Of a DNA stretch of 64,000 nt, positions 2,581 through 15,208 are shown piece by piece. Below the pieces are notes generated by a model that was not told where the DNA came from, searched no databases, and was given only the letters and a program-made list of their open reading frames with translations. Source of the stretch: an uncultured Eubacteriales bacterium (GTDB lineage Bacteria; Acidobacteriota; Aminicenantia; Aminicenantales; Aminicenantaceae); the NCBI GenBank assembly GCA_964633715.1, contig CAZWHQ010000007.1:20914-84913 (forward strand). The letters run 5' to 3'. Positions within the stretch are counted from its first letter, which is position 1. Each line of letters starts with the position of its first letter. Made by a program: the position numbers and the translations under genes.

Positions 2581-3723
2581 ATGAGACAAAAAACCGTTAG
2601 ATATACACTGATCATCTTGCTGGCCAGCGTGTCTCTTTTTTTCCTTTTTGAAAATGATATCCTACCTGGATTATCGATCCAGAAGCCTAGAAAGGGCATC
2701 CTCTGGATCGTCCAGCAAGTTGTCAGGCATATAAAAGATGATTATGTGGATGAAGCTGATCCCTCCAGGACAATGGAAGGGGCCTTCAAGGGAATGGTCA
2801 ATTCACTCGATGAATTCTCCAGCTATCTCACAAAAGATGCCGTTTCCAAACACCAGCAAATAGAAGATGGGGACCTGAATGATATTGGAATTATTTTGTA
2901 CAAAAAATACAGGACATTTCCTGTGGTGATGGGTGTGCTTGAAAATTCTCCCGCAGAAAAAAAGGGGATACAAATAGGAGACACCGTCAGCGCTCTTGAT
3001 GGTCAATCAACACTGCCCATGAGCATGTATGAAGCCAATCTCTTTCTCAAGGACACCACCAACAATCCCATCCACATCAGAATCCTGCGCGCGAATGAAA
3101 ACAAAGAGATAGAGGTCCCGCGAGCAAAGCTTTGGGAAAAACCCTGTGTCTATAAACAAGCGGAAGGAACCAGCGGAATTTTAAGCATTTTTTGCTTGAA
3201 TTCAGCCTGTATCCAGGAGATCAAGGCCTCCATTCTTTCCCAGCTGAAAACTTCGAATTCGCCCTTAATCATCGATTTGAGAAATTGTCATCAAGGAAAT
3301 TTCGAAAACATGATGAAGTTTGTCAATCTATTTCTCCAGTCAAAAAATATCGGGTATTTTGAAGACAACAGAGGAAAAAAAGAAATTCTCTCCACTCCCT
3401 CTGAACCCGAATTGGCTCATCTACCTCTTCTCATTTGGACTAACCAAGCGACTTTAGGTCCTGCCGAGGCCGCGGCCGCAATCCTTAAGGAACATAAGCA
3501 GGCTAAAATCATCGGATATCAGACACCAGGCCTGGTCGCTAAGCATAAATTTATACCATTAGAAGATGGAAGTGGTTTGTTGCTGACTGCATCTATCTTC
3601 CATCTTAACGCAACAACAAAAATTTGGGAAGAAGGCATCGAACCAGATGTAAAGCTGGAAGGAACAGACCAAAGTTCCGCAAAGTATCTCGAGCAGACAA
3701 AAAAAATTCTCTCTAACATCTGA
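2581..3723 (+). CDS. S41 (CtpA/Prc-like) PDZ-containing peptidase homolog, probably catalytically inactive
   Basis: N-terminal anchor, GMVNSLDEFSSY, PDZ (SPAEKKGIQIGD), IIDLRN and GIEPDV. The catalytic motifs read TLGPAE and TPGL instead of SASASE and TFGK. Confidence 0.8.
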   Translation: MRQKTVRYTLIILLASVSLFFLFENDILPGLSIQKPRKGILWIVQQVVRHIKDDYVDEADPSRTMEGAFKGMVNSLDEFSSYLTKDAVSKHQQIEDGDLNDIGIILYKKYRTFPVVMGVLENSPAEKKGIQIGDTVSALDGQSTLPMSMYEANLFLKDTTNNPIHIRILRANENKEIEVPRAKLWEKPCVYKQAEGTSGILSIFCLNSACIQEIKASILSQLKTSNSPLIIDLRNCHQGNFENMMKFVNLFLQSKNIGYFEDNRGKKEILSTPSEPELAHLPLLIWTNQATLGPAEAAAAILKEHKQAKIIGYQTPGLVAKHKFIPLEDGSGLLLTASIFHLNATTKIWEEGIEPDVKLEGTDQSSAKYLEQTKKILSNI

Positions 3724-12100: not shown

Positions 12101-12620
12101 CATGTGAGTTGACCACTGATTCGCGTGTATATCCAGATTTTCTTATCCGTTCGATCAGAGTGTCTCTATCACAGACATCTCCTTTACTGATCTCAAGAAA
12201 AAATCTCCTCATATTTTCAGGACGCGGGAAGGGCCAAAGAAGGGCCGCAGGTTTGGTTAAGACCAAATGTGGAGGATCATAAAGAAGATCGTGAAAAAAC
12301 ATCATCCGTGCCGAAACAGTGTCCAGAGCAGGTGGGATGTTTTCATAAGGATTATCCAATAAAGGAGGAAACCAGTTAGCTTTTAATTCTGACGAAAATA
12401 TAGACAGAAAGCTCCGGCATTGGTCGGCAAAATTGGGGAGATTGGAAAATGAAGGCTGGATAAAAACAATCCTCTTTTTTGTTTCAGCCAAGAGTGCTGC
12501 CAAGAAAAAAGGCTTGGCTGCAGGGACAACCCCCGTCAGTTTTATTCCCTTTTTCCCCTCATTGATAGCCTCCACGAGCTCTTTGAAAGAATCTGTTTCT
12601 CGAATAAAATTCAAGTTCAT
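9189..12620 (-). CDS. mfd: Transcription-repair coupling factor Mfd
   Basis: 1143 aa. UvrB-homology region (RGGIVDVFSP), RID (VVHTDYGIG), SF2 motifs CGDVGYGKTE, DEEQRFG, TATPIPRT and QLRGRVGR, and a C-terminal TRCF domain. Confidence 0.97.
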   Translation of the reverse strand: MNLNFIRETDSFKELVEAINEGKKGIKLTGVVPAAKPFFLAALLAETKKRIVFIQPSFSNLPNFADQCRSFLSIFSSELKANWFPPLLDNPYENIPPALDTVSARMMFFHDLLYDPPHLVLTKPAALLWPFPRPENMRRFFLEISKGDVCDRDTLIERIRKSGYTRESVVNSHGEFTWRGGIVDVFSPWQAYPYRIEFSGDKVASLREFDLSSQRSLRKKDRITIPTLYEFPLFLSDFVKCWETGAKTENFLFQDKDLGQLVAELEKGEIPSSFYSLSLLASDFFQSFKFFLNNHVYIMDDFEDVEKDWRELCKDYEEQYAELKKRNKLALPPEKMYTINFWNQIGQDAVHLHSLTSTANKKTYHFPFQSVTRFDNKIPFFIEYLKKGLNEGALISVFFSSDGVRQKLASLLSQHEIPNQPVSDPFGQPLNGAVSLLLGDIAFGFSYPQFNWILFSERDIFTEEKVLVSRSPIRPFVSQFRDLKSEDFVVHTDYGIGVFKGLIKMELDEKNREFIEIHYKENDKLFVPVEDLNLVQKYSNLSSVKPSCNKLGTKNWERTKERTKKAIETMAKELLHLYAKRKAIKGFEFSTSGTWQIEFDKTFQFEETGDQKKAIEGILLDMESESPMDRLLCGDVGYGKTEVALRAAFKAVMDSKQVAVLCPTTVLASQHLQTFRDRMVLFPVRVESLTRFQTKNQQRRILEDLKKGLVDIIIGTHRILSQDVEFQDLGLLVVDEEQRFGVKHKEKLKQMRMNVDVLTMTATPIPRTLNLSLSGLRDISLIETPPKDRLAIHTVVTPFSRKLITSGIKTELARGGQVYFIHNRITDIDSIAQMIEKWVPEAKVAVIHGQISGLNLEKKMIDFIQMKYNVLVSTTIIENGIDIPLVNTLFVNRADKFGLSQLYQLRGRVGRSSRQAVAYFLVPPFSDLTVLAKERLKALKEFSELGSGFRLAARDLEIRGAGNFLGSQQHGYMEAVGFEYYMHLMDSTVKRLKGDEDKGVQSEINLKMDIQIPEEYLPQMNMRLNLYKRISSVESLAELDRIRDEIKDRFGILPESVENLLRYGAVKFLSHTLKIKSLNRVGHKIIFKFSPSFSGDLIRLTKLMEERDGTVTPQGVLSLKIRTENETAFMNETITVLKELTLM

Positions 12621-12628
12621 AACTTTTT

Positions 12629-12658
12629 ATTATACAAGGAGAAACCGAAGGAGGACAA
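12629..12658 (-). promoter_or_regulatory. Candidate sigma-70 promoter of mfd (probably leaderless transcript)
   Basis: TTGTCC-18 bp-TATAAT, ending 8 nt before ATG 12620. Confidence 0.55.
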
Positions 12659-12668
12659 ATGACTTTAT

Positions 12669-13058
12669 ATAAAGGAATTATCTCTATTTCTATGATTTCA
12701 AGAACGAGTTCTCCGTGAACTAGCAAGTCGATGAGAAACCACGCTGCGCTTTCCCCAGGAGTCGCCGGCGCATCCTGCTCCATCTTCGTCGAAGACCCAA
12801 CCCACCTCACCACCATGCTCCTCAGATGGACATGGATGCCGCCGGGCCTATCCTGCGTATCCTTCAGTTGAGGCGGATGGACGTCGTCGTCTCTGTCACC
12901 ATTCACAACTTCTGTGATGGGGGCAGAACGCGTAAGGGTTCCGTCCGACTCTAAAATAAAGAGGACATACCCATGCCCGCTCGTCCTCCCCGTGCTGATT
13001 TCTACATCATCTTCCCAGAACTCTTATACAATCACAGAAATAGAGATAATTCCTTTAT
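12669..13058. repeat. 29-bp inverted repeat pair (12669..12697 and 13030..13058) enclosing a GC-rich ~330-bp segment
   Basis: ATAAAGGAATTATCTCTATTTCTATGATT versus the reverse complement of AATCACAGAAATAGAGATAATTCCTTTAT: 28/29 identical. Interior 12701..13020 is about 56% GC by hand count, visibly above the AT-rich flanks. Confidence 0.9.
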
Positions 13059-15208
13059 TAGATGCGCCACCAGTAGGAAAACTTTACAAACACGCTGTAA
13101 TCTGTCTGCCCGAAATGCCCGAATTCATTTTTAAGCAGGTTGTTGTCGACTCCAAAGAAAAAGACCGTGCCTGGACGAAGAATCCAGCTGAAAAGAAAAC
13201 TCCCATAGATCTCCTCGTCAAAATGGTTGTAATCGACAATACCCCGCACAGATAGAGTTCTGCTGAGCTGATAGGTCGTCCGCGTGCGAAGGACGTTATA
13301 ATCGTAGAGGATATCTCCACCTCTATCTTCAAAAAATGTCTGTTTGATGTACTGAAGGTCCAGCCTAAGCCTTTTACTTGGCTTTAATCCTAAAAAAAGA
13401 GCATATGTGTTGTTGTGCCCGAGGAAAGGATCATCGGGATCATAATAGATGCTTCCCCCTGTTTCAAACACAACCACGGATGTCAGCCATTTCAGAAACG
13501 TGAATTGTCCCTCCAATTCGAACGAATTTTTCTTAAAATTAACACCGGCATACCGTTCCATATCGGTTTGAAATCGAAATCGTAGCTGACTAAATTCAGT
13601 AAACCGGAAATTGAGATCCCCTCTCAGCCACTCATCTTGAAGGAGATTTTCAGAAAAAAAGAATCTCCGTCCTGCGTTCAGGTTAAGTTGGATCTGGCTT
13701 AAATACTTTTTCTCGGGATAAACAGAGGCAAATGTAAAGGCCCCATAGGATTTATAATCCACCCGGTTCACATATCCTGAGGAAGCTTCAAAATCAGGAT
13801 GCATGGCCTGACTGAAGATCCCCGCACCCCAGTGCTTGGAGTAATAAAAAAATTCTCCGTACAGGGCGGGGACGATATCGGTCTCTTCATCGGAGAGTTT
13901 TGTTTTTGAGGCCAAAGCCTGAAAATTAAAAAAGAATTTATTGTTGAATTTAAGCTGTCCATCGATCCCGGCCACACGATTGTATGACCCATTGATCTGT
14001 CTATCGGTAAGAGCAAATCCGATGTAGGATTCTTTGAGCACATCGGCCTTGATCCTGAAGATGTTGAAGAGAGCATTGTCAGTTTTAGCGCCTCCTCCGT
14101 TGCTGACATCCCATAGACTTTCCGTAGGACTCGTATCTAGAGCCGTAAGAACACCGTATGTAAAACGTCCAATTTTTCCCGTCAACTTCCCCCCTGCTAT
14201 AGGATCATTGATCCTTCGTGTGTAGACCATGTTGATCTGGGGAAAACGGAAGATTTCCATCCCTTCGAGAAAAAAGGGCCTCTTTTCCTCATAAAAGAGG
14301 GCAAATCTTTGGTTCACGTCAATTTGAGGAGCATCGGCTTCGATGTGACTAAAATCGGGATTGATGGTCAGATCCAATGTGGAGTTGGATGTGATTCCCC
14401 ACTTAAAGTTGATGCCGGGATCAAAATTCAACCTCTCTCCTTTAATCTTAAGTGATGTGGCCACCGGCATGAGTTCGAAGTTCTTGCCTCGCTCCACCGC
14501 CTCTGTGAGCAAAATTTCTCCACCCTGAGCTAGGAGTCCGGGAATATCTCTCGTATAGGTAGGCCACATGACGATTTCTCCGCTTCGGGCGATACTCCGC
14601 CCAAGAACGACACTCCACACTTTGTTCTCGTCATCCGGAAAGCGGAGGCTTTTAAAGGGAATCGCCATTTCGACAGTGTATCCGTCGTCATCGATCCTAC
14701 CGCCAGAGAAAAAGGCGGCATCCCAACTGAAGTCCATGTTGTCATTCCCTCCTTCTTCCATTCGGATACAATCCATCTGGACACCCAGAGGATTTGCGAG
14801 GAATGAAAGGGCCCGTCGTTTTTCATTAAAGGTATCAAGAAAAATCACGACCCAGTCATCCTCGATACACTGGTCGCGGTTGGTGATCGAGGCCCTGATT
14901 TTGCCCGGTTCACTGTCGTAACATTTTATGGCCACGTACAGGTTCTTTTTGTCATAACCCAAATACATAACCGTTTTTTCTGTGGGCGGCGCCCCTTCTT
15001 TTGGAGACAACTGGAAGAACTGCTCGAACTTAAGAGCTTCTTCCTCCCACAAGGGATTATCTAATATTCCGTCGATTTTAGGAGCATTTGAGAACAGGGG
15101 TATAGGCAGAGGTTCCTCAGAAGCAGAAAATCCCAACGAGGTCAAGAGAACCAGTCCCAATATTACACACATAGAGAAAAAAGGGCTATTTTTAATCATA
15201 TTTTTCAT
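13058..15208 (-). CDS. DUF5916-family protein with N-terminal CBM9-like sugar-binding domain and probable outer-membrane beta-barrel
   Basis: Signal peptide, APKIDGILD...W, YDKKNLYVAI, GYTVEMAIPFKSLRF, LTINPDFSHIEAD and LFYEEKRPFFLEG; aromatic C-terminus FVKFSYWWRI. Confidence 0.8.
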   Translation of the reverse strand: MKNMIKNSPFFSMCVILGLVLLTSLGFSASEEPLPIPLFSNAPKIDGILDNPLWEEEALKFEQFFQLSPKEGAPPTEKTVMYLGYDKKNLYVAIKCYDSEPGKIRASITNRDQCIEDDWVVIFLDTFNEKRRALSFLANPLGVQMDCIRMEEGGNDNMDFSWDAAFFSGGRIDDDGYTVEMAIPFKSLRFPDDENKVWSVVLGRSIARSGEIVMWPTYTRDIPGLLAQGGEILLTEAVERGKNFELMPVATSLKIKGERLNFDPGINFKWGITSNSTLDLTINPDFSHIEADAPQIDVNQRFALFYEEKRPFFLEGMEIFRFPQINMVYTRRINDPIAGGKLTGKIGRFTYGVLTALDTSPTESLWDVSNGGGAKTDNALFNIFRIKADVLKESYIGFALTDRQINGSYNRVAGIDGQLKFNNKFFFNFQALASKTKLSDEETDIVPALYGEFFYYSKHWGAGIFSQAMHPDFEASSGYVNRVDYKSYGAFTFASVYPEKKYLSQIQLNLNAGRRFFFSENLLQDEWLRGDLNFRFTEFSQLRFRFQTDMERYAGVNFKKNSFELEGQFTFLKWLTSVVVFETGGSIYYDPDDPFLGHNNTYALFLGLKPSKRLRLDLQYIKQTFFEDRGGDILYDYNVLRTRTTYQLSRTLSVRGIVDYNHFDEEIYGSFLFSWILRPGTVFFFGVDNNLLKNEFGHFGQTDYSVFVKFSYWWRI

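What the first reader, a model, noticed from the sequence alone, without database searches (positions are those of the whole stretch)
12669..13058. GC-rich ~390-bp segment bounded by a 29-bp inverted repeat, wedged between the DUF5916 stop codon and the mfd promoter
Seen: IRs at 12669..12697 and 13030..13058 (one mismatch). The right IR begins at the DUF5916 stop, and the left IR ends 10 bp from the mfd -35 element. The interior is about 56% GC against AT-rich flanks. One minus-strand frame is open from 13023 to 12559 (EFWEDDVEIST...PGGIHVHL...WFLIDLLVHGELV) but has no good start and matches nothing I recognise. There is no transposase or recombinase nearby, and no clear target duplication beyond an AT dinucleotide. 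Inference: a non-autonomous mobile element (MITE-like), an intergenic invertible DNA switch acted on in trans, or a structured RNA closed by a long terminal stem that could control read-through into mfd-ppiC-surA. It is the most anomalous non-coding structure in the window.
Basis: partly seen in the sequence, partly recalled or inferred. Interest (0 to 1): 0.7.

Follow-up and report, generated by a model that had tools for sequence, protein, structure and literature searches.

The report
Small mobile repeat inserted before mfd
The segment is a 388-bp non-coding "hitch-hiker" transposon (a MITE-like repeat) of a previously undescribed family in uncultured Aminicenantes bacteria; it is missing from the same site in close relatives, so it is an ordinary kind of genomic parasite and not a switch or a gene.

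Summary
A 28/29-nt inverted repeat (one mismatch, none expected by chance) bounds a 55%-GC interior between the DUF5916 stop codon and the mfd promoter.

It is one copy of a dispersed, non-coding repeat family:
- I found eight further copies in unrelated gene contexts. Four are in one MAG, and another lies on the window's own contig outside the window.
- Two assemblies break inside a copy.

The DUF5916-mfd site varies among close Aminicenantes relatives that are otherwise collinear for at least 10 kb on each side:
- Two assemblies have an empty 44-nt site.
- One lineage has a rearranged copy in the opposite orientation.
- Others have decayed remnants.

Against the empty site, the insert is exactly TAAAGG...CCTTTA (12670-13057), flanked by a probable 5-bp target duplication, TATAA / TCTAA. 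The duplication contains the stop codon.

The open frame is not a gene: copies differ by frame-shifting indels and have no family hits. No Rfam family matches. The long terminal stem decays in older copies.

A 93-nt GC-rich hairpin core is the best conserved part, but it shows only one compensatory pair and it decays at this locus in relatives.

Verdict: a new MITE-like family, mobilised in trans by an unidentified transposase. Any regulatory effect on mfd is unproven.

The parts
12670..13057 (-). The whole element, 388 bp. Orientation is defined by the conserved core, which reads 5'->3' on the minus strand, the same direction as DUF5916 and mfd.
   Evidence: This is exactly the DNA present in the window and absent from the empty site of L012/L013. 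It is 92% identical over 331 nt to a copy in another gene context (L001) and 85% to L002.
13030..13057 (.). Terminal inverted repeat on the DUF5916 side (minus strand TAAAGGAATTATCTCTATTTCTGTGATT).
   Evidence: Recognisably related ends occur in L002, L003, L004, L005, L007 and L008 (read).
12670..12697 (.). Terminal inverted repeat on the mfd side, 27 of 28 complementary to the other. Imperfect pairing continues inward (GAGTTCT.../...GAGAACTC).
13058..13062 (.). Probable target-site duplication, DUF5916-side copy. The minus strand reads TCTAA and includes the DUF5916 TAA stop codon; the L008 lineage keeps TATAA here.
   Evidence: alignment. In one search, L012 12143-12148 aligns to both flanks of the insert.
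12665..12669 (.). Probable target-site duplication, mfd-side copy (minus strand TATAA).
12758..12850 (-). Conserved 93-nt GC-rich (63%) hairpin core: CCGGCGGCATCC / TCCATCT / GAGGAGCATGGTGGTG...GGGTCTTCGACGA / AGATGGA / GGATGCGCCGG.
   Evidence: It is present in all 8 intact copies at 86-98% identity, higher than the arms. It has 27 predicted pairs with 97.7% of cells paired, and one pair shows a G-C to A-U double change in 3 sequences.
12861..12961 (-). Optional 'middle' module. It is present in the window, L001, L002 and (inverted) L008, and absent in L005 and L007.
12951..12991 (-). Terminator-like hairpin with a U-rich tail (GGGGAGGAC...GUCCUCUUU AUUUUAG), at the junction of the 5' arm and the middle module.
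   Evidence: -14.7 kcal/mol, z -0.57. It is shared with L001 but not kept in L002. This is a weak, inferred feature.
12629..12658 (-). The mfd promoter-like site (TTGTCC-18-TATAAT). It lies outside the element, and the TATAAT is conserved in relatives with an empty site.

Best explanation
The segment is a non-autonomous DNA transposon: a MITE-like, foldback-type interspersed repeat. It belongs to a family found so far only in the window's Candidatus Aminicenantes lineage and in a few uncultured-bacterial assemblies of similar (about 43-45%) GC content.

Shown:
- It is repeated in unrelated intergenic sites.
- It is non-coding.
- It is bounded by 28-nt terminal inverted repeats that continue as imperfect inverted arms.
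- It is an insertion relative to an empty site in close relatives.

Inferred:
- A DDE-type transposase encoded elsewhere, not identified here, recognised the terminal repeats.
- It inserted the element into T(A/T)TAA at the DUF5916 stop codon, duplicating 5 bp. This preserved the stop codon and left the mfd promoter intact 6 nt away.
- The element carries modules between its arms: an optional 'middle' module and a conserved 93-nt GC-rich hairpin.

At this locus it most probably does nothing essential. Its likely side effect is to put 388 bp of strongly self-pairing sequence, plus a terminator-like hairpin, between DUF5916 and mfd. That would separate mfd from read-through transcription and leave it dependent on its own promoter.
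For: Repeat family:
- The translated interior recovers only short, nameless ORFs from other contigs.
- Their DNA shows copies between inositol monophosphatase and amidohydrolase genes (L001) and between an ACR_tran transporter gene and a PALP gene (L002).
- A 21-mer from the core hits four contigs of one MAG. A second core pattern hits one further metagenome contig.
- P0003 lies on a contig of the same length (107,400 bases) as the one carrying the window's own ORF P0002, and it has no match inside the window. It is therefore probably a second copy on the window's contig.
- An N-gap lies inside the L004 copy, and the L011 contig ends 61 nt into the element.

Insertion polymorphism:
- The window is collinear with L008, L012 and L015 for 10 kb on each side. 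The only large indel is at this site.
- L012 and L013, two independent assemblies, have a 44-nt gap reading TAA|AGTC.
- L008, L009 and L010, three independent assemblies, have a 404-nt gap holding a rearranged copy, and the L011 contig from a fourth sample starts the same insert before it ends.
- L014 and L016 have a 153-nt remnant. L015 has 674 nt with two decayed cores.
- The outgroups L017 and L018 have unrelated 120-160-nt spacers.

Target duplication: TCTAA and TATAA flank exact TAAAGG...CCTTTA ends, and L012 bases 12143-12148 align to both flanks.

Non-coding:
- No Pfam hit.
- Copies differ by 1- and 2-nt indels.
- P0003 and P0128 read the same DNA in different frames.
- Only 9 hits among 1.84 billion representative proteins: eight short heterogeneous ORFs (including the window's own) and one spurious match to a 964-aa repeat protein.

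Terminal repeats behave as transposition signals and not as an RNA stem: pairing is strong in the window and L002 (z -6.6 and -5.2) and lost in L005 and L007 (z about -1).

Decay at this locus: the core is missing in L008 and degenerate in L014, L015 and L016.
Against: - No partner insertion sequence with matching ends was found. The only transposase seen (L004, ISNCY/IS481-like) has no demonstrable relation to the element.
- The target duplication is clear in only one copy, has one mismatch, and is not evident in L002 or L005.
- The interior is GC-rich, whereas MITEs are usually described as AT-rich (PMC3049150).
- The core is conserved more strongly than the arms. Pure neutral decay of a parasite does not predict that.
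- The copy number found is small, and the collections I could scan were limited.
- The tree puts the empty-site lineage L012 next to the remnant-bearing L014/L016. So either the site was hit repeatedly or L012 lost its insert precisely.
Confidence: 0.8

Rival explanations
1. The element is mobile DNA, but its real content is the 93-nt GC-rich hairpin. On this view the hairpin is a functional RNA, or a single-stranded or cruciform DNA site, under purifying selection and spread around the genome by the repeat: a mobile cis-regulatory, processing or stabilising module for neighbouring transcripts.
For: - The core is 86-98% identical among copies whose arms are 68-95% identical and only partly alignable.
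- L003 and L004 share little but the core and degenerate ends.
- Indels are confined to one apical loop.
- One G-C to A-U double change occurs in three copies. Two changes give G.U on the minus (gene) strand, and two further G.U pairs are invariant on that strand.
- The core is 63% GC in hosts of about 43-45% GC.
Against: - Only one covarying pair; 20 of 27 pairs never vary, which says nothing either way.
- One change (L007, C.A) favours the opposite strand.
- The window copy does not fold better than shuffles (z -0.5).
- No Rfam family matches.
- Neighbouring genes differ at every copy.
- Orientation relative to neighbours is not informative (3 co-oriented to 1 anti among tandem contexts; note).
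- The core has decayed or is absent at the orthologous site in L008, L014, L015 and L016.
Confidence: 0.12
2. The segment is an invertible DNA switch. A recombinase encoded elsewhere flips the segment between the inverted repeats, changing transcription into mfd-ppiC-surA.
For: - A 28-nt near-perfect inverted repeat lies directly upstream of the mfd promoter.
- In the L008 lineage the arm next to DUF5916 is the one that lies next to mfd in the window. The interior therefore has the opposite orientation between similar outer ends at the same junctions.
- In L014, L015 and L016 the core apex is inverted relative to the middle module.
Against: - The L008 insert is not a simple flip. It has three terminal-repeat-like sequences, a different central segment and no core, which fits nested or repeated insertion better.
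- No recombinase lies within 10 kb.
- No promoter-like site inside the element points outward toward mfd.
- The mfd promoter lies outside the element and is conserved in empty-site relatives.
- The same family occurs at many unrelated loci.
Confidence: 0.05
3. The interior is a small protein-coding gene or gene fragment on the minus strand.
For: The frame is open for 155 codons. GC content by codon position is 0.63/0.42/0.62 in that frame. Gene callers have predicted ORFs on several copies.
Against: - There is no start codon before 12906, and no Pfam hit.
- Frame-shifting indels separate the copies.
- Predicted ORFs use different frames, starts and ends.
- Variable core positions are not concentrated at third codon positions (read).
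Confidence: 0.02
4. The segment is an assembly or amplification chimera.
For: The reads could not be checked. Repeats of this family do break assemblies.
Against: The full 331-nt interior and ends recur at 92% identity in an independent metagenome. Related inserts occupy the same site in three independent full assemblies of a sister lineage, with a fourth contig breaking inside the insert.
Confidence: 0.01

Closest known systems
Bacterial MITEs in general (for example Correia elements of Neisseria, RUP of Streptococcus pneumoniae, Nezha of cyanobacteria), as summarised in PMC3049150
   Same: Short, lacks a transposase, has terminal inverted repeats and a short target duplication, is strongly self-pairing, is dispersed mainly in intergenic DNA, and shows insertion polymorphism between close relatives. 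It may act as a terminator or RNase target when co-transcribed.
   Different: It is longer (230-390 bp against about 100-200 bp). The interior is GC-rich, not AT-rich. No partner insertion sequence with matching ends has been identified. There is no sequence similarity to any record in the plasmid or phage collections, and the core 21-mer is absent from the viral contigs. The duplication appears to be 5 bp, not the TA of Correia and RUP.
Composite or modular repeats: pneumococcal BOX (boxA-boxB(n)-boxC; PMC3049150) and the BrickBuilt MITE of Porphyromonas gingivalis (PMC4596501)
   Same: Constant end modules bracket variable internal modules. Copies differ by presence or absence of modules (middle, core, and the alternative segment in L008). 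They are always intergenic, and spurious ORFs are called on large copies.
   Different: There is no tandem internal unit. The modules here are single, and one of them (the core) is far better conserved than the ends. This is a resemblance in organisation only; homology was not shown.
Invertible promoter segments (invertons or fim-type switches)
   Same: Inverted repeats flank a few hundred bp directly upstream of an operon, and the opposite orientation is seen in a relative.
   Different: There is no adjacent invertase and no internal promoter. The family is dispersed and polymorphic for presence or absence, and the repeats decay in older copies.

Membership tests
MITE (miniature inverted-repeat transposable element) | Small, with no transposase or other conserved ORF | tested here: met
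   388 bp. No Pfam hit. The frame is not conserved among copies.
MITE (miniature inverted-repeat transposable element) | Terminal inverted repeats | tested here: met
   28 nt, 27/28 complementary, 0 expected by chance. Related ends occur in other copies.
MITE (miniature inverted-repeat transposable element) | Target-site duplication | tested here: inconclusive
   The window copy has TCTAA/TATAA flanking exact ends, and the empty site aligns to both flanks. L007 possibly has TTAAC/TTAAA. It is not evident in L002 or L005.
MITE (miniature inverted-repeat transposable element) | Multiple dispersed copies in a genome | tested here: met
   Four contigs of one MAG. At least two copies probably lie on the window's own 107-kb contig. 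Further copies in L001, L002 and L007.
MITE (miniature inverted-repeat transposable element) | Presence/absence polymorphism at orthologous sites | tested here: met
   L012/L013 are empty; the window, L008-L010 and L014-L016 are occupied. Flanks are collinear.
MITE (miniature inverted-repeat transposable element) | AT-rich composition (PMC3049150) | tested here: not met
   Interior 55% GC and core 63% GC, against 43% for the host. This is a descriptive trait, not a mechanistic requirement.
MITE (miniature inverted-repeat transposable element) | A partner insertion sequence with the same terminal repeats in the same hosts | not testable with these tools
None was seen in 214 kb of related loci. 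The ends of the L004 transposase could not be compared.
Invertible promoter switch | Site-specific recombinase encoded next to or near the segment | tested here: not met
   No recombinase family appears among the genes within 10 kb on each side in collinear annotated relatives.
Invertible promoter switch | Promoter inside the invertible segment | tested here: not met
   The sigma-70-type scan finds no site inside the element directed at mfd. The scan covers only that promoter type.
Invertible promoter switch | Both orientations within one population | not testable with these tools
   This needs the reads. Between lineages the orientation differs.
Any Rfam RNA family | A covariance-model match at or near the gathering score | tested here: not met
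   No match over the element at E<=10. None in the window at gathering scores. None on four other copies at E<=1.

The most novel reading that the evidence does not exclude
The 93-nt GC-rich hairpin is not mere cargo. It would be a functional structured RNA, or a protein-binding hairpin, of a new class that a transposon spreads to many promoter-proximal sites in Aminicenantes: in effect a mobile regulatory RNA module. Alternatively, the hairpin could be the feature that the unknown transposase or a host factor needs for mobilisation.
Probability: 0.15. Interest if true: 0.6.

Novelty: new member of a known kind. Interest (0 to 1): 0.33.

Why it matters
The finding matters in a small way for three reasons.

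- It explains an odd-looking segment as ordinary mobile DNA. This prevents a false gene call (115-155 aa) and a false 'riboswitch or switch' annotation upstream of mfd.
- It defines, with coordinates and ends, a repeat family in a phylum with no cultured model. That is useful for MAG assembly, because contigs break at it. It is also useful for strain typing and for finding the active transposase.
- The unusually conserved GC-rich hairpin is a reasonable candidate for a follow-up covariation study.

Tried and rejected
- Rfam at permissive thresholds on the window copy and on four other copies: nothing.
- tRNA/tmRNA scan: none.
- Pfam on the open frame and on plus-strand ORFs: nothing.
- A concatenated query of the other reading frames of the core against the 5.8-billion-protein set: no hits.
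- An exhaustive HMMER profile search: only 9 hits, eight short heterogeneous ORFs and one spurious.
- Plasmid and phage collections and viral contigs: no relevant match. The single 28-nt phage hit lies in a thymidylate synthase gene and is chance.
- Look-ups of NCBI-only proteins (P0003, P0005 and the window's DUF5916) to reach the rest of the window's contig: not on record.
- Orientation bias of the core toward the downstream gene: 7 of 8 at first sight. I rejected it because three copies lie in divergent intergenic regions, where co-orientation is automatic. The informative cases are 3 to 1 (note).
- Retron ncRNA, IS200/IS605-type hairpin elements and attC sites: considered from memory and dropped. 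There is no reverse transcriptase, the element has terminal repeats plus a duplication, and sequence (not only structure) is conserved.
- The terminator-like hairpin at 12951-12991: kept only as a weak inference, because it is not conserved in L002 and its z-score is -0.57.
- First run of the flanking-gene tree script: it hit the time limit and printed nothing. The rerun succeeded.

Full report
**1. The observation**

The inverted repeat is real. Its arms are 12669-12697 and 13030-13058, 29 nt with one mismatch. There were no matches in 100 shuffles and no third copy in the window. No other inverted repeat of that quality lies anywhere in the 64 kb.

The repeat sits between two minus-strand genes:
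- a 716-aa CBM9/DUF5916 protein (13058..15208);
Its collinear orthologues (1141-1142 aa) carry the transcription-repair coupling factor (Mfd) domains.

The interior is 55% GC against 43% for the window. The only promoter-like site pointing at mfd is TTGTCC-18-TATAAT at 12658->12629, just outside the repeat. The 155-codon open frame exists.

**2. It is not a gene**

- The open frame has no Pfam match and no start codon before 12906.
- It does show codon-like GC periodicity (0.63/0.42/0.62), so I searched with its translation.
- That search returned only four short, nameless ORFs. Their sequences show the same DNA read in different frames. For example, P0003 reads NPYAFC where the window frame reads GTLTRS.
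- Aligned copies differ by 1- and 2-nt indels.
- An exhaustive profile search of 1.84 billion representative proteins found only 9 hits: eight ORFs of 38-115 aa with different starts, ends and frames (four of them the query sequences or the window's own ORF), and one spurious match to a 964-aa repeat protein.
- A query built from the other reading frames of the core found nothing.

**3. It is a dispersed repeat**

| Source | Where the copy lies |
|---|---|
| L001 | Between an inositol monophosphatase gene and an amidohydrolase gene; 92% identity over 331 nt |
| L002 | Between an ACR_tran transporter gene and a PALP enzyme gene; 85% identity |
| L003-L006 | Four contigs of one MAG, found with a 21-mer from the conserved centre |
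| L007 | One metagenome contig, found with a second core pattern |
| P0003 | On a contig of the same length (107,400 bases) as the one carrying the window's own ORF; no match inside the window, so probably a second copy on the window's contig |

Assemblies break at the repeat. There is an N-gap inside the L004 copy, and the L011 contig ends 61 nt into the element. Nothing similar exists in the plasmid or phage collections, and the core 21-mer is absent from the viral contigs. All host loci are 42-48% GC.

**4. Anatomy**

All copies share degenerate versions of the terminal repeat, roughly AAGG-ATT-C-ATTTC-GTGATTTCAAGAACGAGTTCT. The repeat continues inward as imperfectly inverted 5' and 3' arms.

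Between the arms lie an optional 'middle' module and a 93-nt GC-rich hairpin core:
- The middle module is present in the window, L001 and L002, and absent in L005 and L007.
- L003 and L004 are minimal forms, with ends plus core.

The core is the best conserved part. It is 86-98% identical between copies whose arms are 68-95% identical and only partly alignable. Indels are confined to one apical loop.

The consensus core fold has 27 pairs, with 97.7% of cells paired. However, 20 pairs never vary. One pair shows a G-C to A-U double change, in three copies. Two changes give G.U on the gene strand, and one change favours the other strand. The window's core does not fold better than shuffles (z -0.5). 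No Rfam family matches any copy.

The long terminal stem gives strong folds in the window and L002 (z -6.6 and -5.2). It is not maintained in L005 and L007 (z about -1). Without the arms, the window interior is unremarkable on the gene strand (z -0.95). That is the behaviour of transposition signals that decay after insertion, not of a selected RNA helix.

**5. The orthologous site**

The closest DUF5916 proteins carry source names of Candidatus Aminicenantes. Their contigs are collinear with the window for 10 kb on each side: an ATP synthase operon, an ABC/Wzt transporter, DUF5916, mfd, ppiC, surA and more. The only large difference is at this spacer.

| Lineage | State of the DUF5916-mfd spacer |
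|---|---|
| L012, L013 (two independent assemblies) | Empty: 44 nt, ...GGCGGATTTAA\|AGTCGTCTGTC... |
| Window | 388-bp element: ...GCGCATCTAA\|TAAAGG...CCTTTA\|TATAA\|AGTCATTTGTC... |
| L008, L009, L010 (three independent assemblies; the L011 contig from a fourth sample breaks inside the insert) | 404 nt, rearranged copy in the opposite orientation, no core |
| L014, L016 | 153-nt remnant |
| L015 | 674 nt with two decayed cores in opposite orientations (23 and 17 bits, against more than 90 bits for intact cores) |
| L017, L018 (outgroups) | Unrelated spacers of 120-160 nt |

The insert in the window is therefore exactly the terminal-repeat-to-terminal-repeat unit (12670-13057). It is flanked by TCTAA and TATAA. 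L012 bases 12143-12148 align to both flanks.

The L008 lineage has TATAA at the DUF5916 side. One synonymous ATA>ATC change therefore explains the single mismatch in the window's duplication. The duplicated target contains the stop codon, which is why the gene still ends at the same place.

In the L008 insert, the arm next to DUF5916 is the arm that lies next to mfd in the window, so the orientation is opposite. That insert has three terminal-repeat-like sequences and a different central segment. It reads most simply as nested or repeated insertion.

A neighbour-joining tree of the flanking genes puts L012 (empty) with L014/L016, and puts the window with L008 and L015. So either this T(A/T)TAA site has been hit several times, or the insertion is old and L012 lost it precisely. 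I cannot decide between these. The near-perfect terminal repeats of the window copy, and its 92% identity to L001 against roughly 80% identity for host genes among relatives, favour a fairly recent insertion here.

**6. Mechanism**

Shown: the segment is repeated, non-coding, bounded by terminal repeats, polymorphic for presence, and subject to decay.

Inferred:
- A transposase encoded elsewhere mobilises it in trans. None lies within 10 kb. The ISNCY/IS481-like gene next to the L004 copy cannot be linked to the element.
- Insertion duplicates 5 bp.
- The effect on the neighbours is probably passive. The element adds a 388-nt, strongly self-pairing segment and a terminator-like hairpin with a U-rich tail (12951-12991) between DUF5916 and mfd. 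In the empty state these genes are only 44 nt apart. The terminator-like hairpin is a weak feature, because L002 does not keep it.
- The mfd promoter lies outside the element, and its TATAAT is conserved in all lineages.

**7. Comparison with known kinds**

The element meets the operational features of bacterial MITEs as listed in PMC3049150: terminal repeats, target duplication, strong secondary structure, dispersion and lack of a transposase. It does not meet AT-richness, and no partner insertion sequence was found.

Its modular build recalls composite repeats such as pneumococcal BOX and the BrickBuilt MITE of P. gingivalis. That resemblance is in organisation only. It fails the tests for an invertible promoter switch (no recombinase nearby, no internal promoter) and for any Rfam family.

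A literature search for Aminicenantes together with 'inverted repeat' or 'MITE' found nothing relevant.

**8. Verdict**

This is a new family of a known kind of element. It is moderately interesting to people who assemble or annotate Aminicenantes genomes.

The one feature that does not fit a plain parasite is the strongly conserved GC-rich hairpin. It could be a functional RNA or a protein-binding module. Against this, it decays at this very locus in relatives, and the covariation evidence is a single pair.

Noticed in passing
window 12620-12634 (minus strand); the same in L008, L012, L014, L017 and L018: The mfd start codon lies 8 nt after a conserved TATAAT, with no Shine-Dalgarno sequence (TATAATAAAAAGTTATG). 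This is kept across all lineages examined and suggests a leaderless mfd mRNA in this Aminicenantes clade.
   Followed up: partly
L006 3352-3397 and 6105-6255: The 5' arm of an element copy and its core are separated by a 2.7-kb HlyD-ABC-Yip1 operon. Synteny with the related contig L001 (84.6% identity over 3.4 kb) breaks inside the element. This suggests that the repeats serve as rearrangement breakpoints, or can bracket cargo.
   Followed up: partly
L004 3777 to the end of the locus (5057): An ISNCY/IS481-like DDE transposase ORF of more than 427 aa runs off the locus. It starts about 250 nt after an element copy that itself contains an assembly gap (N run at 3529-3538). Its ends could not be compared with the element's terminal repeats.
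   Followed up: no
L015 8139-8814 (DUF5916-mfd spacer): This 674-nt spacer holds two decayed cores in opposite orientation. Directly after the stop codon it also has a separate 12-nt perfect inverted repeat (CCTGAATAATTC ... GAATTATTCAGG) with arms 235 nt apart. The first 36 nt are shared with the outgroup L017. It may be a second small element at the same hot spot.
   Followed up: no
window 12698-13023, minus-strand frame: GC content shows a codon-like three-base periodicity (0.63/0.42/0.62) although the frame is not conserved among copies. It may be a relic of a coding origin, or a by-product of GGN/GAC-rich runs. It remains unexplained.
   Followed up: partly
L003-L006 (MAG CAZLLG01): The MAG is labelled 'uncultured Eubacteriales', yet its contig L006 is 84.6% identical over 3.4 kb to L001 and carries the same repeat family as the Aminicenantes window, at the same GC content. 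The taxonomic label may be wrong.
   Followed up: no
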